From: a virus
Lineage: Duplodnaviria; Caudoviricetes
Strand: one strand, 5' to 3'
Virus record (IMG/VR): IMGVR_UViG_3300021400_000103
DNA length: 64,000 nucleotides
The notes beneath the pieces were generated by a model that was not told the origin of the DNA, ran no database searches, and saw nothing but the letters and a program-made list of their open reading frames with translations. Positions 25,046 through 62,900 of the stretch are shown here, piece by piece (position 1 is the first letter of the stretch; the number at the start of each line of letters is the position of its first letter). The translations under genes and the position numbers were made by a program.

Positions 25046-25251
25046 AACAGTTCTCGCAAGCCTTCTACGAAAGTAATGCGCAACCTGCGAGACATATAAA
25101 GAACTCCCCACGCCTCTCCACGATGCGTACCACGGGGAGTCATTTAATTTTTTTTGGCCGACGAGGCCGTACCATGCCCACCGAAATTTGCGGATTGACG
25201 GTGAAAGCTCGGCATTTGCCGCAACAGATGTATGAGAAAGGCATTAATTGA

Positions 25252-41831: not shown

Positions 41832-42573
41832 ATGATTACAAGTTTTGATAATCTTGTTATTGATCGAGTTGTAGACGGTTGGTTTGAGTCTAAGTCTACC
41901 GGCGACCTGCTTGCTGTTCTTGATCAGATTTCTAACTTTTCTATCAATACAACTTCTGAGACTAAGGATAAGACAGACGCTCAGGGCGCTCTGCTTAAGA
42001 GATATTTTACTTCCAAGTCAGTAGAGGTTTCTGGTGAGAATGCAACATTCTCTATGAACCTGTTTGCACTTCAGAATGGTGTATCTAAGGTAACAGGAAC
42101 CGATGTTGTCATCCCGAGAATTTATCTCGCAGAGAAAGGTACTGGAACCATCACTCTTCCCGAGGAGCCTATTGAGGGTACATTTAAGCTTTACGGAACA
42201 ACTCCGAATGGCAATGCTGATCTTGAGAAGAAGTATTCTCCGGCTGAGGGAGATGATCCGGAACCGGGCGCTGGTACATATGTCCTTAATGGAACAACTC
42301 TTCAGCTTCCTACCGACGTAACTGATTCTGTACAGATTAAGTATGAGCGTAATGTAGGCGCAGCAGATGTAGCTGCAAGAGTTAACGTACAGGGTGACAA
42401 GTTCCCGAAGGAGTGCAAGGCTACATTCCGTGTACTTTGCTCCGATCTTTGCGAGTCTGAGGAAGTACTTGCACTTTACATCGTATTTGAGAAGTTCCAG
42501 ATGAGTCCTGATTTTGATTGGACTGTAGACACAGAGTCAACTCAGAACTTCTCTGCTACGGCATTCAAGGATT
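41832..42573 (+). CDS. major tail protein, exon 1
   Basis: Capsid-like codon bias, position; ends AFKD at the intron. Confidence 0.75.
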
Positions 42574-42966
42574 TTCAAAAAGCAGAATACAATCGAGCTG
42601 CATAAGATCCCGTATTCAGTAATGAGTATGAAAAAAAATAACACATTGAATTGCTGGAAAACCGTAAAGCCAAATAAACCACAACGCAATATCTTAAATG
42701 GTATAATCGTGATGGTGACGAAAGTAGAAAAAATTATTTGGATGATATATGGTTAAACCCTAAGTATCGTAAGAATTGGCAATCAGCAACCAAGCCCGAA
42801 AGGGAAGGTTCAACGACTATCCTTATATAGGAGTAGATAACAAGCGATTGGTTATCGAAGTGGTGTGCGCCCGGTTTATGGGTGATGATATAGTCTAGTC
42901 TCTTGATGAAAGTCAGAGGTGTATATACACGAAATAGTGTAGCGAACTATTTTAAATATTATAACG
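42574..42966 (+). mobile_element. group I intron without ORF
   Basis: P1 GGATT/GATCC with U.G; P10 ACAAT/ATTGT; AATTGCTGGAAA, AATCAGCAAC, CAACGACTA, ATATAGTCT core; terminal G42966. Confidence 0.9.
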
Positions 42967-44098: not shown

Positions 44099-45214
44099 AT
44101 GAAACCAATATACTTGGACAATGCTGCATCTACGCCAGTACGTCCACGCGTATTGGCAAAATTTGTAGAAATTGCCGATAGTTTGTATGGCAATCCAAGC
44201 TCGAAACATATAGAAGGGCTAGATGCTTATGAAGAAGTTTCGCACACAAAAGATAAGATTTCGGAGTTTCTATCGTGTGCAAGTGATGAGATATATTTTA
44301 CATCTGGCGCAACAATGTCTAACAACATTTTGATTCAAGGCATGTTTCGTAAGCATCCAGAAACAATGTTAATCATATCCAATGTTGAGCATAACGACAT
44401 TATGGAGTTATATAATTGGTTACCATATACAAAGCGCATAGTGCCAGTAAATAAAAGCGGAATAATTGATTTAGCAATATTAGATGATCTAATAAATGAA
44501 TGTAAGGAAACAGGTAGATATAGCCTTGTCAGTGTTCAGTTAGCTAATTCGGAGACAGGGATTATACAACCTGTTAGGGAAATCTCTGAAATAGTACACA
44601 AACATGACAAGGCTTTTTTTCATTCAGACGCGACGCAGTATATACCATATTATCCTGTTAATACGGATGAAATGGGCATCGATGCTTTATCAATGTCTGG
44701 TCAAAAGATCAATGGGCTAAAAGGAAGTGGAATACTTGCTCTACGACGAGGTATGCAAGAACATGTCGCTCCAATTATATTTGGTGAACAAGGATTAATT
44801 GGCGGTACTCCTGCCACTCCACTTATTTCAAGTCTTGGAGAAGCATTTGAATTATTGAATTATAACAATATTGAACTCAAACATAAAAGAGACATTTTAT
44901 TACGGCATCTTGAAGATCTCGGAGGTGTCTTAGTGGGTACTATAGAAAACCGTTTACCAAACAATATCTATATCCGGTTTCCTGGGGTTGGCGGTATGAC
45001 ATTGTTAAATCTTTTGAATGACTATGGTATCTATATCGGTACAGGATCTGCATGTTCTACCGATTCTGATAAACCAAGTCATGTAGCAATGGCGTATGGA
45101 TTGAGTCCGGAAGAAGCTCTGGAATGTGTAAGATTTACCCTGAGTAACGAAAACACCTATGAAGAGATCGAGTATGTAGTAAAGGTAATAAAAGCAATAT
45201 TATGTTTATTCTAA
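44099..45214 (+). CDS. iscS: cysteine desulfurase (IscS/NifS family)
   Basis: IYLDNAASTP, FTSGAT, HSDATQ, SGQK (PLP lysine), GSACS catalytic Cys. Confidence 0.9.
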   Translation: MKPIYLDNAASTPVRPRVLAKFVEIADSLYGNPSSKHIEGLDAYEEVSHTKDKISEFLSCASDEIYFTSGATMSNNILIQGMFRKHPETMLIISNVEHNDIMELYNWLPYTKRIVPVNKSGIIDLAILDDLINECKETGRYSLVSVQLANSETGIIQPVREISEIVHKHDKAFFHSDATQYIPYYPVNTDEMGIDALSMSGQKINGLKGSGILALRRGMQEHVAPIIFGEQGLIGGTPATPLISSLGEAFELLNYNNIELKHKRDILLRHLEDLGGVLVGTIENRLPNNIYIRFPGVGGMTLLNLLNDYGIYIGTGSACSTDSDKPSHVAMAYGLSPEEALECVRFTLSNENTYEEIEYVVKVIKAILCLF

Positions 45215-46248
45215 GGAGGGATCTTGTGGATACAATTGCAAAACGAAGTGACGAGATTACAGATGAAATGTGGCAAAAAGTTAACAAGTTTAATCGGGAT
45301 CTCTCACAAGAATTTATGGACAGTAAAATTGAATTGTCAGAAAAATCAAAGATACAGTATGCGTCTGGATTACGGATTTTTTTCTGGTGGGTTCATGAGA
45401 ATTTAGAAAACAAAAAATGTATAGATATAAAGAAAAAAGAGTTTGTTAAATATCTAAATTGGTTGACCAATCGAGGATTGTCTGACTCTGCCATTAAATT
45501 AAAAAAATCCGTAATCAGTTCATTGTGTAGTTATATATCTGAATTCTATGAAGATGAGTACCCAACATTTAGACCATTTGTAACATCGAGTATGAAAGTT
45601 ATACAAACGGGCTTTGTCCACGAAAAGCAGCCATTAACAACAAAAGAATACGAAGATTTGTGCAAAAAGCTTGAAGAGATGGAAAAATGGCAAATACTTG
45701 CATGGTTAAAATTTTCTTATTCAACTGGATGTCGGAGAGCGGAGTCTCGACAGCTATTAAAGGAAGTGGTTAACTACTCTCCTATTGTTAAAACTTTAAC
45801 CATAAAAGACAAAGATGGAAACGAAGTAGAAACTCAATCTATATCCTACAAAACACATAAGATTCGTTGCAAAGGGAGAAGTATGGCTGGAAAAATTCGT
45901 CAGTTACAGTTTAGCGAAGACGCCATGAAGGCGATAAAGAAATGGTTGGAGATCAGAGGTGACGACGATTGTCCTTATGTATTTGTTTCTAAACATAGCG
46001 ACGGATCTATACATCAGGTAAGTGAAACATGTTTCAATGATTGGTGTAGTGACTTATTGACAAAATTAGTTGGCAGGAGAATACATCCGCATTTGCTTAG
46101 AGAAAGCAGAGCAACCAATATAGTTGTCGAAGAGGGGAAATCCGTAGAAACAGCACAAAAGCTTCTCGGACACGAAAGTTCTGAAACAACAATTAAGCAT
46201 TATATTATTAGAGAAGATACAGATGATGCCGACGAGGCATTTGTTTAG
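45202..46248 (+). CDS. tyrosine recombinase
   Basis: STGCRRAE, HPHLLRES, LLGH, HY catalytic residues. Confidence 0.9.
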   Translation: MFILRRDLVDTIAKRSDEITDEMWQKVNKFNRDLSQEFMDSKIELSEKSKIQYASGLRIFFWWVHENLENKKCIDIKKKEFVKYLNWLTNRGLSDSAIKLKKSVISSLCSYISEFYEDEYPTFRPFVTSSMKVIQTGFVHEKQPLTTKEYEDLCKKLEEMEKWQILAWLKFSYSTGCRRAESRQLLKEVVNYSPIVKTLTIKDKDGNEVETQSISYKTHKIRCKGRSMAGKIRQLQFSEDAMKAIKKWLEIRGDDDCPYVFVSKHSDGSIHQVSETCFNDWCSDLLTKLVGRRIHPHLLRESRATNIVVEEGKSVETAQKLLGHESSETTIKHYIIREDTDDADEAFV

Positions 46249-55600: not shown

Positions 55601-57227
55601 AAATAAATCCTTTGAAAAAGAGGGAAATTTAGTAGCTAAAATAGTTGATGATGAAATTACTTATTTCGAAGTTTTAAAGGACACTGTTGATGGTGTAACC
55701 GAATCTATAAGCAAACAGGAAAATGTTGCTAAGGATTTGAAACAAAAAAATGAAACACAAAAGCAGAAAAAACAAGATAAACCAACAAGCGATAGAGACA
55801 AGGCGACATTATTGCAAGAACATTATACCGACCTAAGAAGGAGCGCTTATCAATCATTTGGGCAGAAAAGTGACATACAGCAAGAGATGTCAAAATACTA
55901 TTCACAAATAGCCAAAGAATCAGAGATTGCCTATTCTAAAGCAGAGAATAAGGCGAATAGTTTAATTGTTCAGGTAGATAATATTAAACGGTTTGGAAAA
56001 TACACTTCTGACTTTGTTGCCGAATTAGACTCTGCTAGAAATGAATTAGATGCGTTCCTTGAAGAATTGAGATCTGGAGATATTCCATTCGAGACTATTG
56101 ATCAAAGGATTAAAACATTAAGTCAAGATATTGAAGGTACATTATCAAAAAAGGCATTTAGTAGTGTCAAACAAGCTGCTGAAAAATCCTTAACCAATGT
56201 AGGATTAAAAATAGATCAGATTATCGCAAAAAACTCTGCTATGGGAAAGGATTTTGAATCAAGATTTAAAAATCTTCGCAGTGATTTGGGGTTGGCAGAA
56301 AGCGTCGAAGACGTACAAAGAATAATAGCTGAGGTCAATAAGCTTGAATCTGAATTAATTTCAACCGGGAATACTGGCAAAAGTTTTATTGATCAGATTA
56401 AACAAAGAATGAGGGATATAAATACGAAATATATCGCTCAATATTTTAGTTTTCAAGATATTATTAGATACGCAAGGCAAGCAGTTACGAACGTAATCGA
56501 ACTCAATGATGCATTTATAGAATTATCAAAAGTATCTAACACAACAGTAAAAAATCTTGAAGCAGATTTTCAGTCATATGCTGATATCGCAAAAGATATT
56601 GGTGGAACTATAACAGATACAATTAATGCAACTGCCGATTGGGCAAGGATGGGTTACTCTGTTCCAGATTCAAAGCAATTAGCAGAAGTTGCTATGTTAT
56701 ATAAAAATGTCGGAGATGGTATTGATATTACCGCTGCAAACGAATCGCTTATATCTACTCTGCAAGGTTTTCAGATGCAAGCAGATGAGGCAGAACATAT
56801 TGTAGACGTATTCAATGAGGTAGCAAATAACTACGCTATTGGTAGTGGCGGAATTGGTGAAGCTCTTCAACGGTCTGCTGCGTCTTTGAATGCTGCGAAT
56901 ACATCGTTAGAAGAATCTGTTGCATTGGTAACTGCGGCTAATACTGTAGTTCAAAACCCGGAAAGTGTCGGAACAACATTCAAGACATTATCAGCCCGTA
57001 TACGTGGCGCAGATACCGAATTGCAAGAACTTGGAGAAGATGCCGATGAATTTACCGAAACAACATCAAAACTTCAAGGATTAGTTAAATCATTAACTGG
57101 CTTTGATATACTTGAAGCTGATCAGAAAACATATAAATCTATATATGAAATTCTTATAGGTATAGGTAAAGAGTGGCAAAATCTTAGTGATATTGAAAGA
57201 GCATCTCTTGGAGAAGCTCTTGCTGGT
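52656..57227 (+). CDS. tape measure protein, exon 1
   Basis: Long coiled coil plus TP901-like core (ADWARMGY, VDVFNEVANN, GTTFKTLSARIRG); ends ALAG. Confidence 0.9.
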
Positions 57228-58583
57228 AAATTCTATTACCAGGATATGTAGTAATACATATTAAAGAATATATTTAATTGCAGGTAAAACCTAAAGCCTT
57301 ACACCACAATAAAAGGGAAACTATTTTATGATGGTACGAAAGTAGAAACAACGTAAGGATGGTATATGGTTAAAAACCTAAGTACTGCTCTTGTATTTTT
57401 TGAAGAGAAAATGGTAGTTCATGCAACGAAGCACCCTAACGTATTCTGGAGACCGTCCAGTACTTGAGTCGAGGGTGAACGCTCAACGATCATTCCCTAT
57501 GAGGGATTTAGGAAAGGTGTTAATCACCATAAAATAAAGGTGGAAATCCTGAATACCTAAATCATTAGAAGTAGAGCCACAATCGCAAACGGTGGCGGTG
57601 AAAAACCATAAGTCGAAAAGGTATACTCCTACTCTATTTAGAAAGGATGAAGAAATGATCTATTCTCATATGAAAGTATGAGTTTTAATTGGTTATCAAA
57701 AATATGTAATGAAACAAAATAGATGGTCAGATTTGGAAATACAATTATTAAAAGATAATTATGACAGTACTTCCAAAGAAGAAATGTTAGAGTTATTAGC
57801 TCCACGATCATGGAGTTCGATACTTACAAAAGCCAATAAGCTTGGTATAAATAAAAGGTTAAATTGGACTGATTCCGAAGACAAATTATTAAAAAACACA
57901 TACTCAACAACTGATATAAATGAAGTTGTAAGACTATTTCCTGATAGAACAAAACACAGTATAATTGCAAGAGCAATAAAATTAGGATTGAATTCTTTTA
58001 ATCACCCAATTTGGACTGATGAACAAGTTCAATATATAATTGATAATTGGCAAATATTACCAGATGAAATTATAGGTCGAAATATAAATAAAACCAAAAA
58101 TGCAGTCAAAAGAAAACGTAATCTATTGGGATTACATAGGCAGCAAAAAGGTTGTTATTATAATTATGAAAATATATCAAAATATATACGTGGACAAATA
58201 TGGGATTGGAAGAAAAAATCTATGGAAAATTGTGAATATAAATGTGTTATCACTGGAAGTAAAGATTTTGAAATACATCATATTTATCCAGTCAACAAAA
58301 TAATAAAAGATATATATGAAAAATATAACATTGAATACAAGAATTATGAAGATTATTCAAAAGAGGAACTATCTAAAATAGTTACTCTTTTTTGTATTGA
58401 ACAAAATACACACCCATTAGGAGAATGCACAAGAAAAGATTTACACAAATTGTTTCATGAATTATATGGACAATATAATACAACCTATGAACAATGGGAA
58501 CGATTCAAACTCGACATTAAGAAAGGAGTTTATGATAACCATATTAAAATAGATATTGTTGCGTAATATCTAAAATGTAAAAG
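57228..58583 (+). mobile_element. group I intron 1 of the tape measure gene
   Basis: Core similar to intron 42574; P1 CTGGT/ACCAG; P10 TTCTATT/AAGAGAA; terminal G58583; restores LAGKRNAN. Confidence 0.85.
57709..58566 (+). CDS. HNH homing endonuclease (intron-encoded)
   Basis: Three W(S/T)D.E..L repeats; CVITG...HHIYP...HKLFHELYG. Confidence 0.85.
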   Translation: MKQNRWSDLEIQLLKDNYDSTSKEEMLELLAPRSWSSILTKANKLGINKRLNWTDSEDKLLKNTYSTTDINEVVRLFPDRTKHSIIARAIKLGLNSFNHPIWTDEQVQYIIDNWQILPDEIIGRNINKTKNAVKRKRNLLGLHRQQKGCYYNYENISKYIRGQIWDWKKKSMENCEYKCVITGSKDFEIHHIYPVNKIIKDIYEKYNIEYKNYEDYSKEELSKIVTLFCIEQNTHPLGECTRKDLHKLFHELYGQYNTTYEQWERFKLDIKKGVYDNHIKIDIVA

Positions 58584-58904
58584 AAGAGAAACGCAAATAC
58601 TCTATACGCCGTACTTGATAATATTGAAACTCTCGAAGCTGCATACCAAACAGCCGAAGAATCTGCTGGATCGGCACAACGAGAACAAGAGAATTATCAA
58701 AAGGGTATTACATATTCGATTAATCAGGCCAAGGCAGCGCTTGAAGAGTTGTCTTATGATGCTATAAATTCTGACTTTTTGAAAGGACTTGTTGATTCTG
58801 GTACAAAATTAATTGAAGTATTAGACTTTATCATTGATAAGGTTGGTCTTCTTAAGACCGCCCTCATCGCCATCGGAACCATATGGGGTTCCCAAAAGCT
58901 GGGT
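58584..58904 (+). CDS. tape measure protein, exon 2
   Basis: KRNANTLYAVLDN...SAGSAQRE...GSQKLG, in frame with ORF 58749. Confidence 0.85.
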
Positions 58905-59382
58905 TACTGTGTATCAAGTAGGCTCAGGTACCACCCCGCGCCACGGCTAAAACCCGTGGGTAAAACGCAAAGACCATCATTTCGTCAAACAACCGTTTCA
59001 CGAAATGGTGTAGGGTGTACAAGTAAAATCAAACGATGTGGGATATCCCACTCTCGTACCGCTGATATGACTGCGTGGAGCTACGCAGCCTAGGATGTCC
59101 GTGAGGCTCCTACAAGGACTGGAAAGGGTTATGGATCTCACTATAACGGTGTACCGTTATACCTAACCATAACTCCAATCAGCAGGGAAGCGTACTACTC
59201 TCCCACTACTGGTGAGCAAGTGCTGCCCCCAGAGGCTCCCAAGCGGGCGCGGACGAAGTGCTATGCATAAGTACGCGAAGGTAGAGTCCAAACACCGGAT
59301 TTGAGACGTCCGGTAAAAAGCCCCGGCTAGTAGGCATACTGCTCTGTATTACTAGCGGCTTGTGCGAGAGCAGAAATTGATG

Positions 59383-59517
59383 TTTACAACTAAATAATAA
59401 TGTGATACAATATTTAACAGAAAAAGGTGCTACCGTAAAGCAAGCGGTTAGCCCCTGAAACTATTAGTTATAAATAATAACCGCCGAGTTTTCTCAGGAC
59501 TGTGGGCGGTTATTTTT
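59383..59517 (+). ncRNA. putative type I antitoxin sRNA with promoter and terminator
   Basis: TTTACA-17-TACAAT with TG extension; terminator AATAACCGCC/GGCGGTTATT overlapping the 3' end of the peptide gene. Confidence 0.65.
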
Positions 59518-59574
59518 ATGTTCTTTCACGAGTTCAATAAGTAACATCGCTATAGCATAAATAGTTTGAACCAT
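59494..59574 (-). CDS. putative type I toxin peptide (26 aa)
   Basis: MVQTIYAIAMLLIELVKEHKNNRPQS; RBS AAGGAGG held in the GCCCTTC/GGAGGGC hairpin. Confidence 0.6.
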   Translation of the reverse strand: MVQTIYAIAMLLIELVKEHKNNRPQS

Positions 59575-59635
59575 TTTACTGCCCTCCTTTCCGAAGGGCG
59601 AACATAAGAAGCCCTTCTAATGAAGGACTACTCCC

Positions 59636-59866
59636 CTACCACTTTGCGCCACAGGATCCGCACTGCATGGTTTTCCCGAGGTTCGAAGATGCTAAACCAA
59701 ACATCCCTGTGCTAACCCATCTCTTACCGGCTCCAATCTTCTTCACGTTGGTGGATCCGCAGGTGGGACATTTGGGGACGTTGGTAATATGATTGGTTGT
59801 TTCCGCATTTTTATAATCGTTAATCGCATTACTAAATTCCTTATTAAATTGGTCACTAAATCCCAT
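59636..59866 (-). CDS. Zn-ribbon protein (intron cargo)
   Basis: CPTCGS...CGSCG; GGAGGTG RBS; leftward TTGCTC-17-TATAAT promoter at about 59887-59915. Confidence 0.8.
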   Translation of the reverse strand: MGFSDQFNKEFSNAINDYKNAETTNHITNVPKCPTCGSTNVKKIGAGKRWVSTGMFGLASSNLGKTMQCGSCGAKW

Positions 59867-59922
59867 AAAATTCACCTCCTTAATCTATTATATAATATAC
59901 GCTTCACAAGAGCAATCATTAG

Positions 59923-62900
59923 CTACTACCTGGAGGAATAAAACAGTTATTTAGCGATAATCCAATTGGAACAAACGAAGATAATATTGGGCTTATGCAA
60001 GCATATGATATGCTTCGTAATAGTAACGGGCAAGGTTTTACAAGCAACGACGGCAGTAAAGTAATCAAGTCTGTTGATGATTTAAAACAGCTCGCAAAGG
60101 AATTGGGTGGATGTGATGACGAGGCATTAAAATTCTTAGACACTTGCGAAAAGATACCGGAAACTATCAAAGAAGGCGAAACGGCGTCTGAAGCATTTGC
60201 AAGAACGTATGGCAGTGGAATAAAGAACCTTGGTTCCAGCATTGCAAAACTTGGTAAAACCATCTTGTCATCTCTTGGTAAAGCAGCTCTTTCTGCTGGT
60301 ATAACATGGTTGGCGACTACCGGCATAGAATTAGTTGCCAAAGGTGTTGGCTGGTTATGGGACGAGGTACTTACCGATAACGCCGAAAGAGAACGTAGAA
60401 CACAGGCGGTAACATCAACAAGCGAGAATATTAAGACATATCAGCAAAATACAGAAGTCGTTGATGACGCTATAAAGAAGTACGAAGAACTTAATAAAAA
60501 GATAAACGAAACCAACATAACGTTTGAAGAAGAAGTTGGGTATCGTAAAGAATTAAACGAGTTACAAAAAAGCTTAAATGAAAAATTTGGCACTGCAGCA
60601 GAAGGACTTGATCTTGTTAATAAGGGATACGAAGGCCAGATTAAAGCGTTAAAAGAACTCCGAAAAGAACAAGCGAGAACTTTCTTGTATGACTCAAAGA
60701 CCGGTGCGTTAATTTCAAAAGATGGAAGTACTGACTTTCAACGTAATCTTGATTTGATAAATCAAAAAGTAGAACATGCTGTAGCCTCACTAAATACTGG
60801 TGCATCTGATACTCTAAACGAATATACCGGAGTTGATATACAATCTATAATAGATAAATATCCGCAGTTGAGACAAGCAATAATTGGAGGAGGTGCAGAA
60901 CTTACAAAATTCCAGTTTTCTCTTGATCCAAATTTAACGCAAAAAGAAGCGGATGAAATCCTAACAAGATTATATGAGGAACTTGACAAACAGTTTCCAG
61001 ATAATCCAGCGGTTCAAGAGTTTAAAAAAACATTGCAAGAATCTCTTAATCCTGGATATGACTCATCTCAGTATTATACCGCTGTTGAGAATTCAAAACA
61101 AACAATACGTAATATTCTTGCCTACAATTCAGACGATGGAGAAGATATATTAACAAAACTTGAAAATGCTACCAATGCGTATAACACAGCTTTGGCTAGA
61201 TATGAAAAAGATAATACGGCTAAGAATAAAGAGGAACTTGATGAAGCCAAGAAAAATCTTGATGAGATATCAAACACCGCAGAAACTATATTGACTGATT
61301 CTAATTCATATGAACATCGATTAATTAGCAGCAGAACTGGTGGTCTCGATGTGTATGGTCAAATGATAAATGAGATCCAGGATAAAAAGAGCGGCGGTGT
61401 TAATGGTCGTATACTTGGAATGTTTGATGGTCGCCTCGAAATGTTTGGAAAGCTTAGAAGTGAGCTTGATAAGATGACAGACGAGGAAAAACTTGCATTA
61501 GAGGTAGAACTTGATGGGAATTCAGAAGTTGTTACGCTCGATAATTTAGATAAATTTATCAATCAGGCAAAGAAAAATGCGGCAAAGAATCCTATTGATT
61601 TGGAAGTTGGTATCAAAGCATCCGACGCCGTAGACTCTATGGCCGACATGAAGACTGCAGTGGCAAGTCTGGGCGATTTGTACGGTCAGGTTGTTAAACT
61701 TCCGGCTGATGCTACTGATGATGCGAAGTCTGCATTTGGTTTTGCGGATCCTGCTACGCTCAATAGTATTGAGTCTGCGTTCTCAAAGTTCTCAAAAGAG
61801 CTTGAGGACTCTGGAAACAAAACCGGTGCTACTCAAATTAACGAGGCACTTGAAAATCTTGAAACCACAATGCTTAAGTATCCTGGCGAGACAAAGAAAG
61901 CGGAGGATGCAATCGATGAGTTGATAGGTGCATATCTCGATCAAACATCCGCACTTAAGAATCTTAACAAAGAGAATAAGGCGTGGTCAATAGCACAGCT
62001 TGAGGCTATGGGTGTTACCAATGCAAAACAGGTCGTAGAGAGTAGATTAGCAAAAACAAACAAACAGCTCTCAAAATCCTATTCTATTCTTGAAGAGTCT
62101 ATCAAAAATTATAAAGATGCGGTTTCTCGAAATGACGAAGAAACGCAAACCAAAGAACTCGACAAGATGGCTACTGCCCTTAAAGATTTGTACAGCAACA
62201 ACGAATCAAGCGGTATTATCAATGCAGATTTTGTGAAGAATAATCTTGATCTTATACAAGCTGCTTTGGACGATACGTCTGGTAAGTTTAACGACCTTGA
62301 TCGTCTGCTCTCTCATGAGTATGTAACTAAGATTAGAACAGAAACCAACGATGATGAGTTAAGGGTAATGTTATCTGATCTTGATTTAGCGATTCAAAAT
62401 TTTGACGGTTCTTCGATTGATATTGGTACAAGTATGGATGGCGGCCCGATATTTGCAACACTTGAGGCTATTCGCAAGAGTACCAAGATGACGCTTGAAG
62501 AATTCCAACGTCTCGTCTCTGAAGCATCCGGCGGAACAATCGAGGCAAAGGCTACTTATGAGTTAAAAGACACAAACGTTGAGGTTCCTGATTTAACCGC
62601 CATTATGCATGGTAATGCAAGTAACCTTAATGGTGTTAAAAAGATGAAACTGAAGACTCGTATTCCAAAGTGGACATATGAATACACCGGTAAAGGTAGA
62701 GGTGTTACACCCACATACAAACCGTCGAGTTCCAGTTCAACTGGTAGTGGTGGCGGTGGCGGCGGATCCAGTTCTGGTTCAGATAACAAACTCCAAGAGG
62801 ATACAAAAGAAACGTTTGACTGGATTGAGGTAAAAATCAAACGCCTTGAAGAGGCTGTATCCAGATTAGATGAAATTGCTGGTAGTACATACAATAACTG

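What the first reader, a model, noticed from the sequence alone, without database searches (positions are those of the whole stretch)
58905..59922. Group I intron carrying an antisense cargo operon with a type I toxin-antitoxin-like module instead of a homing endonuclease
Seen: after the ribozyme core (about 58905-59375) the 3' region, possibly closed by CTTGTG(59359)/CACAAG(59905), holds a leftward promoter (TTGCTC-17-TATAAT), a 76-aa Zn-ribbon gene and a 26-aa hydrophobic peptide with a sequestered RBS. A convergent ~100-nt sRNA has its own promoter and a terminator overlapping the peptide's 3' end. Known: this layout is typical of Firmicutes type I TA loci. Inference: the intron is a splice-out landing pad that lets lysogeny-expressed cargo (addiction, defence or exclusion) sit inside an essential gene, and the TA pair may retain the intron without homing.
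Basis: partly seen in the sequence, partly recalled or inferred. Interest (0 to 1): 0.88.

Follow-up and report, generated by a model that had tools for sequence, protein, structure and literature searches.

The report
Tail-gene intron carrying backwards passenger genes
A self-splicing (group I) intron in a gut phage's tail tape-measure gene carries, on the opposite strand, a small zinc-ribbon gene found in every relative of this intron, plus an optional small-RNA/toxic-peptide-like cassette, so the intron serves as a place to keep extra genes inside an essential gene.

Summary
58905-59922 is a group I intron of the phage-typical IA kind that Rfam misses. P1 has a U.G pair at the 5' splice site, the last base is G, and P10 is present. 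In 10 relatives, 64 of 115 base pairs show compensatory changes.

The interpretation needs two corrections.

First, the antisense Zn-ribbon gene is not swappable cargo. It is the constant resident in all 14 copies of this intron family long enough to tell. It also lies head-to-head with the downstream tape-measure part in about 60 of 80 IMG/VR loci examined. It has no nuclease motif and no known family; its function is unknown.

Second, the sRNA/26-aa peptide cassette is the variable part. It is absent from a 97%-identical twin intron, present three times (one copy sRNA only) in another and once in a third, and also found in ordinary intergenic sites of other phages. It therefore cannot explain retention of the intron family.

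The "cargo bay" idea is supported: one relative carries PemK-like and GmrSD-like genes in the same loop. Splicing, transcripts and toxicity remain untested. Earlier follow-ups of this scan reported the intron/Zn-ribbon layout on other DNA; the TA-like cassette inside it is new here.

The parts
58899..58904 (+). Last six bases of tape-measure exon 2 (CTGGGT), the 5' strand of P1; U58904 forms the U.G wobble
   Evidence: Pairs with GCTCAG at 58922-58927. Invariant in 9 sequences. L027 has CUGAGU, which turns the G.U pair into A-U.
58905..59375 (+). Ribozyme core of a subgroup IA-like group I intron. IGS 58922-27; multibranched P2; optional P2.1; P3 59059-63 with 59242-46; P4/5 hairpin; P6; P7 59116-20 with 59285-89; P7.1 and P7.2 between P7 and P3'; P8 about 59248-77; P9; P9.1
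   Evidence: RNAalifold gives 106 pairs, 61 compensatory. The manual structure with the P7 pseudoknot has 96.6% of cells paired and 64/115 pairs compensatory. R/S-like motifs CAAGGACUGGAAA and GAAGGUAGAGUCC are read directly.
59359..59364 (+). 5' strand (CTTGTG) of the long-range stem that closes the cargo loop
   Evidence: Pairs 6/6 with 59905-59910. Five covarying variants occur among relatives.
59383..59518 (+). Predicted sRNA gene (candidate antitoxin): -35 59383-88, -10 59406-11 with upstream TG, transcript about 59418-59518, terminator 59473-59518
   Evidence: Promoter scan 10/12 with TG. Fold z-score -3.4. Homologous copies occur in L011 (x3), L007, L107, L123 and others.
59494..59574 (-). 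26-aa hydrophobic peptide ORF (MVQTIYAIAMLLIELVKEHKNNRPQS), the candidate type I toxin; SD 59582-59589 is sequestered by 59593-59599
   Evidence: ORF list and 5' UTR fold. Relatives of 33-42 aa share the KNNR tail encoded by the shared terminator. RNA-library contigs cover 59450/59505-59630.
59377..59625 (.). The whole TA-like cassette as an insertion/deletion unit
   Evidence: Replaced by about 60 nt in the 97%-identical twin intron L002.
59636..59866 (-). 76-aa Zn-ribbon gene, the conserved antisense resident of this intron family
   Evidence: 106 homologues down to E 1e-45 and 255 IMG/VR contigs. Invariant PKCPTCGS...C..C. Present in every intron copy long enough to tell.
59887..59915 (-). 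Promoter of the Zn-ribbon gene (TTGCTC-17-TATAAT); it overlaps the 3' strand of the closing stem
   Evidence: Read from sequence. Equivalent promoters lie at the same place in L001, L003 and L002. It falls below the scanner's -35 threshold.
59905..59922 (+). 3' strand of the closing stem (CACAAG 59905-10) and the 3' terminal segment ending in the terminal G (59922)
59923..59927 (+). First bases of exon 3 (CTACT), which pair with AGTAG 58917-21 (P10)
   Evidence: P10 of 5-7 bp in 8 of 9 relatives, with covariation: CUGUUUG/CAAAUAG, CUAUUUA/UAAAUAG, CUUGCAC/GUGCAAG.

Best explanation
58905-59922 is a self-splicing group I intron of the IA type, as is usual for phage introns. It is specific for one site (…AAGCTGGGT|CT…) in the conserved core of a large gut-phage tape-measure gene.

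The ribozyme occupies the first 470 nt. A long-range stem (59359-64 with 59905-10) then closes a terminal loop, which RNA splicing removes from the tape-measure mRNA. That loop is used as an expression site for genes read from the opposite strand.

(1) A Zn-ribbon protein gene with its own sigma-70-type promoter sits in the last ~55 nt of the intron. It is the constant resident of the intron family. It has no nuclease motif. My inference is that it is a small nucleic-acid-binding factor made when late genes are silent; its role is unknown.

(2) In this phage there is also an autonomous ~250-bp cassette with type I toxin-antitoxin architecture. The short membrane-type peptide's mRNA hides its ribosome-binding site. 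A convergent ~100-nt sRNA shares a bidirectional terminator with it, so the two RNAs would pair over their 3' ends. The cassette is a facultative passenger gained or lost by insertion/deletion, not the reason the intron persists.

Shown: the ribozyme structure by covariation, the in-frame junction, conservation of the Zn gene, and recurrence and polymorphism of the cassette.
Inferred: splicing itself, both transcripts, peptide toxicity and the timing of expression.
For: Intron:
- P1 with U.G, terminal G and covarying P10.
- 64/115 pairs compensatory, 96.6% of cells paired, slid controls 7-11.
- P3 covaries (CCGCU/AGCGG versus CCACU/AGUGG).
- P7.1/P7.2 lie between P7 and P3', as in subgroup IA.
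- 15 distinct copies are all at the same tape-measure site.
- The spliced product aligns without a gap across the junction to the uninterrupted tape-measure proteins of Brevibacillus phage Sundance and Enterocloster phage CB473P3.

Loop closure: five covarying variants of the stem, spanning 0.4-2.8 kb of cargo.

Zn gene:
- In every copy, antisense and next to the 3' splice site.
- 255 IMG/VR contigs; about 60 of 80 loci have a giant opposite-strand ORF, mostly under 100 nt upstream.
- No nuclease or other domain in Pfam, PHROGs, NCBIfam, PADLOC or the PDB.

Cassette:
- Homologous copies in L011 (two with 39- and 33-aa peptides plus one sRNA only) and L007 (42 aa), each with promoter, SD/anti-SD and a terminator over the ORF end.
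- Absent in twin L002.
- Also present outside introns, for example L123 after the true end of a 2214-aa gene.
- Contigs of 128-206 nt from three bovine-gut RNA libraries of two studies cover just 59450/59505-59630.

Cargo bay: L027, of the same family with intact P1, P10 and closing stem, carries GmrSD_N (4.8e-12) and PemK-like (8.7e-9) genes.
Against: - Rfam RF00028 gives no hit, even at E<=10.
- P7 is almost invariant, so it is untested by covariation. It has a C.A mismatch in L003/L022 and G.G in L001.
- The P4/P5 hairpin has no obvious J4/5 internal loop.
- No splice junction was seen in any run.
- The sRNA terminator is a strong intrinsic terminator on the same strand as the tape-measure pre-mRNA. 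It should impede transcription into exon 3 unless late transcription reads through it.
- The window's peptide is the shortest of its family (26 aa, about 16 hydrophobic residues) and could be a decayed copy.
- No clear promoter for the peptide mRNA was found.
- The RNA-library contigs are unstranded and could stem from DNA carry-over or from related cassettes elsewhere.
- The AlphaFold model of the Zn-ribbon protein is of low confidence (pLDDT 66).
Confidence: 0.72

Rival explanations
1. First reader's version. The Zn-ribbon gene and peptide form one swappable cargo operon, and the type I TA pair acts as an addiction module that keeps an endonuclease-less intron in the phage population.
For: Both ORFs are on the same strand and 59 nt apart, downstream of one good promoter. 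No separate peptide promoter was found. The intron has no endonuclease.
Against: The cassette is missing from 12 of about 15 copies, including a 97% twin. The same cassette family also sits in plain intergenic DNA. The Zn gene is never missing. A terminator-like hairpin (59629-59610) separates the ORFs. A TA module cannot prevent precise intron loss by recombination with an intron-less allele in a co-infecting phage.
Confidence: 0.12
2. The Zn-ribbon protein is the intron's mobility or maintenance factor: a non-canonical homing or targeting protein tied to the tape-measure site rather than to one ribozyme.
For: It stays next to the downstream tape-measure part even where the IA core is undetectable and other group-I-like cores or larger inserts lie between the exon homologues (L063, L071, L056, L085). 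Homing endonuclease genes behave this way. Tourasse & Kolsto (PMC2504315) found the spread of HEG-less tape-measure introns puzzling.
Against: No conserved acidic or histidine residues and no nuclease domain in any of 10 long variants. Minimal forms are 47-76 aa. In L017 it lies upstream of the giant gene with no ribozyme found within 1.6 kb.
Confidence: 0.15
3. The peptide ORF is a chance ORF and the 'sRNA' is only a bidirectional terminator with a chance promoter; there is no TA function.
For: The peptide is only 26 aa. The shared KNNR tail is dictated by the terminator sequence. No Pfam or PHROG family matches. The terminator stem sequence is common in phage DNA.
Against: Full-length cassette homologues (nhmmer E 1e-9 to 1e-61) keep a hydrophobic ORF with strong SD, an anti-SD and an upstream sigma-70 promoter in at least 8 places. 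Peptide sequences diverge while hydrophobicity is retained. Short RNA-library contigs match the predicted mRNA span.
Confidence: 0.15
4. It is not a splicing intron. The tape-measure function is supplied by separate polypeptides, and the structured RNA is a decayed or different element.
For: No Rfam hit. No junction reads. Some relatives of the Zn gene lie upstream of a giant gene with an ATG start and no ribozyme nearby (L015, L017).
Against: Exon 3 has no start codon or SD at 59923 and is in frame with exon 2. P1 and P10 covary with the exons. There is heavy compensatory change throughout the core. Alignment to intron-less homologues is ungapped.
Confidence: 0.05

Closest known systems
Group I introns in prophage tape-measure genes of the Bacillus cereus group (TMP-IVS1/2, class IA2; TMP-IVS3a/b, class IA1; Tourasse & Kolsto 2008, PMC2504315)
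   Same: Same host gene. IA-type ribozymes, several insertion sites in the conserved core, and mostly without a homing endonuclease gene.
   Different: No opposite-strand gene and no cargo other than HEGs is described there. There is no detectable sequence similarity: blastn against the phage collection found nothing.
Phage IA2 introns with homing endonuclease genes (T4 td, nrdB, sunY; SPO1; Twort); from my own knowledge
   Same: P7.1/P7.2 peripheral elements. The ORF is housed in a peripheral loop and has its own promoter.
   Different: Those ORFs are on the sense strand and are nucleases (GIY-YIG, HNH). Here the resident is antisense, 76 aa, and has no nuclease motif.
IStrons (CdISt1 of Clostridioides difficile, BcISt1 of B. 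cereus); from my own knowledge
   Same: A group I ribozyme whose 3' part carries foreign genes that are spliced out with it.
   Different: IStron cargo is an IS200/IS605-type element with transposase genes. No transposase or IS ends are present here.
3'-overlapping type I TA systems of Bacillus subtilis prophages (txpA/RatA, bsrG/SR4, bsrE/SR5, yonT/SR6) and par/Fst of pAD1; from my own knowledge
   Same: Short hydrophobic peptide with a charged tail. Convergent sRNA sharing a bidirectional terminator. Toxin mRNA with a sequestered SD. Residence in phage DNA.
   Different: No sequence or Rfam/Pfam match to any of them. The location inside an intron loop is unreported: no paper links the two. 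The antitoxin sequence is also part of every tape-measure pre-mRNA.

Membership tests
Group I intron | 5' splice site after a U that forms a U.G wobble in P1 with an internal guide sequence | tested here: met
   CUGGGU/GCUCAG in 9 of 9 sequences; L027 has CUGAGU, which still pairs.
Group I intron | Terminal G, and P10 pairing of the 3' exon with the guide | tested here: met
   All 10 defined 3' ends finish in G. P10 is 5-7 bp in 8 of 9 tabulated relatives (3 bp in L007) and 7 bp in L027, and it covaries with the exon sequence.
Group I intron | Core of P3-P8 and P4-P6 helices with the P3/P7 pseudoknot topology | tested here: met
   P3, P4/5, P6 and P8 all show compensatory changes. The order P3-P4/5-P6-P7-P7.1-P7.2-P3'-P8-P7' matches subgroup IA.
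Group I intron | P7 with the guanosine-binding site | tested here: inconclusive
   GGACU/AGUCC pairs in 94% of cells but hardly varies. The R/S-like motifs resemble the consensus.
Group I intron | Match to Rfam RF00028 | tested here: not met
   No hit at the gathering score or at E<=10. The same model does find another intron at 42606-42918.
Group I intron | Exon ligation restores a colinear protein; self-splicing with GTP | tested here: inconclusive
   In frame and ungapped against intron-less tape-measure proteins. No junction reads. Catalysis is not testable here.
Type I toxin-antitoxin system | Small hydrophobic toxin ORF with a translation signal | tested here: met
   26 aa with AGGAGGG 7 nt upstream; relatives are 33-42 aa.
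Type I toxin-antitoxin system | Antisense sRNA gene complementary to the toxin mRNA | tested here: inconclusive
   Promoter, terminator and a 3' overlap of at least 25 nt with the ORF are present and conserved in homologues. No strand-specific transcript data.
Type I toxin-antitoxin system | Peptide toxic when expressed without the sRNA | not testable with these tools
   Needs an expression assay.
Type I toxin-antitoxin system | Membership of a described toxin or antitoxin family (Fst, TxpA, BsrG, SprA1, Rfam antitoxin RNAs) | tested here: not met
   No Pfam or PHROG hit for four peptides, and no Rfam hit.
Homing endonuclease (HNH, GIY-YIG, LAGLIDADG, PD-(D/E)xK, EDxHD) | Nuclease catalytic motif in the intron ORF | tested here: not met
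   Only Zn-ribbon matches below the cut-offs. There are no conserved His, Asp or Glu among the invariant columns.
IStron | IS200/IS605-type transposase genes in the 3' part of the ribozyme | tested here: not met
   No transposase domain in any ORF of the intron.

The most novel reading that the evidence does not exclude
The terminal loop of tape-measure introns is a conserved antisense expression platform of large gut phages, in three respects.

- The universal Zn-ribbon protein is a new kind of intron-associated factor (mobility, maintenance or phage-phage competition) that works without a nuclease domain.
- The loop serves as a hotspot where defence and addiction genes (type I TA cassettes, PemK-like, GmrSD-like) are swapped.
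- Because the antitoxin sRNA lies in the sense orientation, every tape-measure pre-mRNA and excised intron also carries the antitoxin sequence. Toxin control would then be wired to late transcription and splicing.
Probability: 0.2. Interest if true: 0.88.

Novelty: new variant of a known kind. Interest (0 to 1): 0.72.

Why it matters
Group I introns in phages are regarded as ribozyme plus homing endonuclease, or as bare ribozyme. Here a whole family keeps a non-nuclease gene on the opposite strand and also accepts toxin-antitoxin and defence-type genes in the same loop.

This would be a way for phages to park accessory genes inside an essential late gene at no cost to the protein. It may also bear on the open question of how endonuclease-less tape-measure introns persist and spread (PMC2504315).

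The finding also adds an undescribed small-RNA/peptide cassette family, and a widespread phage Zn-ribbon protein (255 IMG/VR contigs) whose strict linkage to the tape-measure gene calls for a functional test.

Tried and rejected
- Rfam at the gathering score and at E<=10 on 57100-60100: nothing for this intron.
- blastn of the region and of the cassette against 50,697 phage records: no match.
- No whole genome is held for the window.
- The exact 21-mer in genome contigs gave only a chance hit inside a glycine dehydrogenase gene (L005).
- AlphaFold2 of the Zn-ribbon protein with 61 homologues gave pLDDT 66 and pTM 0.41. This is too poor for a fold search, so none was run.
- The PDB profile search gave only generic Zn-knuckle matches (E >= 0.08). 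The ESM Atlas returned only viral hypothetical clusters.
- PADLOC: no credible hit.
- The recurrent weak Lar_restr_allev matches (16-20 bits against a cut-off of 28.6) were not accepted as membership.
- The terminator-stem pattern in viral contigs was too unspecific (over 110 hits). It became useful only after filtering with an nhmmer profile of the cassette.
- Sequencing runs: contigs of four RNA libraries showed no exon-exon joint. They gave no cover of the ribozyme, the Zn gene or the exons. The RNA run from the probable source sample held nothing. None of this is evidence of absence.
- Rfam on 23 Zn-ribbon loci without the IA core found no group I hit. The same model also misses the intron studied here, so this says little.
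- A separate promoter for the peptide mRNA inside the end of the Zn ORF was looked for by eye and not found.

Full report
**Setting**

The window is phage-like DNA with no host genome held. Its parts occur in ruminant and other gut metagenomes.

A very large tape-measure gene is split into three exons:
- exon 1 runs from 52644 to about 57233;
- an intron of about 1.35 kb follows, with a sense-strand HNH-like ORF (57709-58566; PHROG HNH endonuclease, 6e-9);
- exon 2 is about 58587-58904;
- the flagged insert is 58905-59922;
- exon 3 starts at 59923.

**Is it a group I intron?**

Rfam says no. RF00028 finds another intron at 42606-42918 but nothing here, even at E<=10.

The sequence and its relatives say yes.
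- The exon ends in CUGGGU, which pairs with GCUCAG (58922-27). U58904 faces a G.
- The insert ends in G59922.
- The first exon-3 bases, CUACU, pair with AGUAG directly 5' of the guide (P10).

I collected 15 distinct relatives, from exon homology, from homologues of the antisense protein, and from a core DNA pattern. All sit at the same site, AA(G/A)CUG(G/A)GU|.

On ten of them RNAalifold predicts 106 pairs, 61 with compensatory change. My structure adds P1, the P7 pseudoknot and a loop/3'-segment pseudoknot. It has 96.6% of cells paired and 64 of 115 pairs with changes on both sides. Versions with the 3' partners slid by 1-3 columns give 7-11 such pairs.

The long-range P3 (59059-63 with 59242-46) covaries: CCGCU/AGCGG against CCACU/AGUGG. 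The motifs CAAGGACUGGAAA and GAAGGUAGAGUCC resemble the classical R and S elements. Two extra helices lie between P7 and P3', the hallmark of subgroup IA, to which most phage introns belong.

P10 covaries with the exon:
- CUGUUUG/CAAAUAG in L001;
- CUAUUUA/UAAAUAG in L009 and L010;
- CUUGCAC/GUGCAAG in L027.

The joined exons read …IWGSQKLG-LLPGGIKQLF…. They align without a gap across the junction to the uninterrupted tape-measure proteins of Brevibacillus phage Sundance and Enterocloster phage CB473P3.

Weak points:
- P7 hardly varies, and it has a mismatch in three relatives.
- There is no clear J4/5 loop.
- No junction read was found.

I put the intron reading at about 0.93.

**The cargo loop**

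The stem is 6/6 paired in eight relatives and occurs as CUUGUG/CACAAG, CUUCUG/CAGAAG, UUUGUG/CACAAA, CUUGCG/CGCAAG and, in L027, UUUGUA/UACAAA. It spans 0.4 to 2.8 kb. Everything between is therefore a terminal loop of the ribozyme.

**The Zn-ribbon gene**

The 76-aa ORF (ATG 59866, AGGAGG 8 nt upstream) is a real gene.
- It has 106 database homologues.
- 255 IMG/VR contigs encode a relative.
- The invariant core is PKCPTCGS…I…G…C..C.

Every copy of this intron long enough to tell has it, antisense, with its start 50-70 nt from the 3' splice site. A sigma-70-like promoter lies in the last bases of the intron. N-terminal parts vary from 30 to about 150 residues and often contain a second Zn ribbon.

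No nuclease or other domain is detectable in Pfam, PHROGs, NCBIfam, PADLOC or PDB sequences. The AlphaFold model is poor.

Only 5 of the 80 IMG/VR loci kept contain this IA core. Yet in about 60 of them a giant opposite-strand ORF starts mostly under 100 nt upstream of the Zn gene. Several also have an exon-2 homologue 0.4-2.9 kb beyond it, separated by other group-I-like cores and other genes (L056, L063, L071, L085).

The gene is thus tied to this place in the tape-measure gene rather than to one ribozyme. It is the constant, not the cargo. I cannot assign its function. A homing role without a nuclease, a regulator made before late transcription, and an exclusion or anti-restriction factor all remain open.

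**The sRNA/peptide cassette**

All the parts described are present:
- a TTTACA-17-TACAAT promoter with an upstream TG (the best promoter match in the region);
- a ~100-nt RNA with a 5' hairpin and a strong terminator (z = -3.4);
- on the other strand, a 26-codon ORF whose AGGAGGG is locked in a 7-bp stem and whose last eight codons lie in the terminator.

Comparison decides the issue.
- A twin intron (L002) is at least 97% identical elsewhere, with identical exons. It has 60 nt in place of 59377-59625.
- L011 has three copies. One lies in the P8 loop with a 39-aa peptide, one has a 33-aa peptide, and one is an sRNA alone.
- L007 has one copy with a 42-aa peptide.
- A profile of these copies finds full-length relatives in other phage contigs with no intron or Zn gene nearby. 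One example is L123, just after the true end of a 2214-aa gene. These relatives again encode hydrophobic peptides.

The shared KNNR tail simply reflects the conserved terminator stem.

In three bovine-gut RNA libraries from two studies, the only contigs that lie on the 1.6-kb stretch are 128-206 nt long. They cover 59450 or 59505 to 59630, the span predicted for the peptide mRNA. Two of them continue into an L011-type terminator variant. This is suggestive only: contigs carry no strand, and DNA carry-over is not excluded.

No known toxin or antitoxin family matches. No paper links type I TA modules with group I introns.

I rate 'genuine sRNA-controlled peptide cassette' at about 0.6-0.65. I rate 'it retains the intron' at about 0.1, because most copies of the intron lack it.

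**Cargo bay**

The same intron family occurs in four states:
- with the Zn gene alone (L001, L003, L010, L020, L022);
- with extra small Zn-finger ORFs (L007, L009);
- with TA-like cassettes (window, L007, L011);
- in L027, as a ~3.3-kb intron with intact P1, P10 and closing stem. It carries a GmrSD_N-domain gene (4.8e-12) and a PemK/MazF-like toxin gene (8.7e-9) on the sense strand.

**Open problem**

The sRNA terminator, and a similar hairpin in L002, is on the same strand as the tape-measure pre-mRNA. It should hinder transcription into exon 3 unless late transcription is termination-resistant.

The sense orientation also means that every pre-mRNA and excised intron contains the antitoxin sequence, and is complementary to both antisense mRNAs.

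**Known and new**

Group I introns in tape-measure genes, mostly without endonuclease genes, are published for Bacillus cereus-group prophages (PMC2504315). An antisense resident gene or TA cargo is not mentioned there or in the other papers found.

Earlier follow-ups of this scan had already reported the intron/antisense Zn-ribbon layout in at least six other genomes. I confirmed it independently here. The TA-like cassette as polymorphic intron cargo is the addition.

Noticed in passing
window 57234-58586: A further intron-like insert in the same tape-measure gene, 320 bp upstream, with a sense-strand 285-aa ORF (57709-58566). The ORF matches PHROG HNH endonuclease (6e-9) and a D5-like regulator family (3.9e-19). 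Its cleavage could co-convert the endonuclease-less intron studied here. Rfam does not detect this ribozyme either.
   Followed up: partly
window 42606-42918: Canonical Rfam group I intron (72 bits, E 2e-16) interrupting another late gene (ORF 41832-42605 stops at its start).
   Followed up: no
window 25104-25140: abiF RNA motif (RF03085, 44 bits against a gathering score of 37) on the + strand.
   Followed up: no
window 59473-59518: The sRNA terminator (a 14-bp stem followed by a run of U) is in the sense orientation of the tape-measure pre-mRNA, inside the intron. The twin L002 has a different plus-strand terminator-like hairpin at the same place. How late transcription passes it is unexplained.
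   Followed up: partly
window 59316-59364: The conserved A5 run between P9 and P9.1 gives, on the minus strand, a P9.1 hairpin followed by CUUUUU. In relatives where the Zn ORF abuts the ribozyme (L003, L020, L022) this may act as the terminator of the antisense gene.
   Followed up: no
L011:590-1020 (intron P8 loop): A 430-nt insertion in loop L8 of an otherwise near-identical intron holds a complete TA-like cassette (39-aa peptide). Cassettes therefore enter at least two different loops of the ribozyme.
   Followed up: partly
L017:3818-5100 and L015:3884-7326: Here the Zn-ribbon gene lies upstream of a giant tape-measure-like gene that starts with ATG. It is followed by a PemK toxin gene with its own promoter, an sRNA-like unit and Bro-N (L017), or by DUF3800 and GmrSD_N genes (L015). 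No ribozyme was found within the flank held. These may be very large introns or truly split genes.
   Followed up: partly
L071:2560-4420 and L063:2640-5330 (minus strand): Other, different group-I-like cores (for example AAUCAGCAACCAAGCCC…GGAAGGCUCAACGAGUAGAC in L071) lie at about the same tape-measure position. They have sense- and antisense-strand cargo, and the Zn-ribbon gene is next to the downstream exon.
   Followed up: partly
L001:3150-3860: The related phage has a further ORF-less insert at another site of the tape-measure core (after …VGTVFKT). The conserved core of this gene is therefore an intron hotspot, as reported for Bacillus cereus prophages.
   Followed up: no
L035:5676-5749: RAGATH-18 RNA (RF03064, 72 bits) lies 2.5 kb from a Zn-ribbon gene in a 186-kb phage contig.
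   Followed up: no
window 45202-46248: A tyrosine recombinase (Phage_integrase, 4e-19) sits among late genes. It is the only hint in the window that the phage may be temperate.
   Followed up: partly
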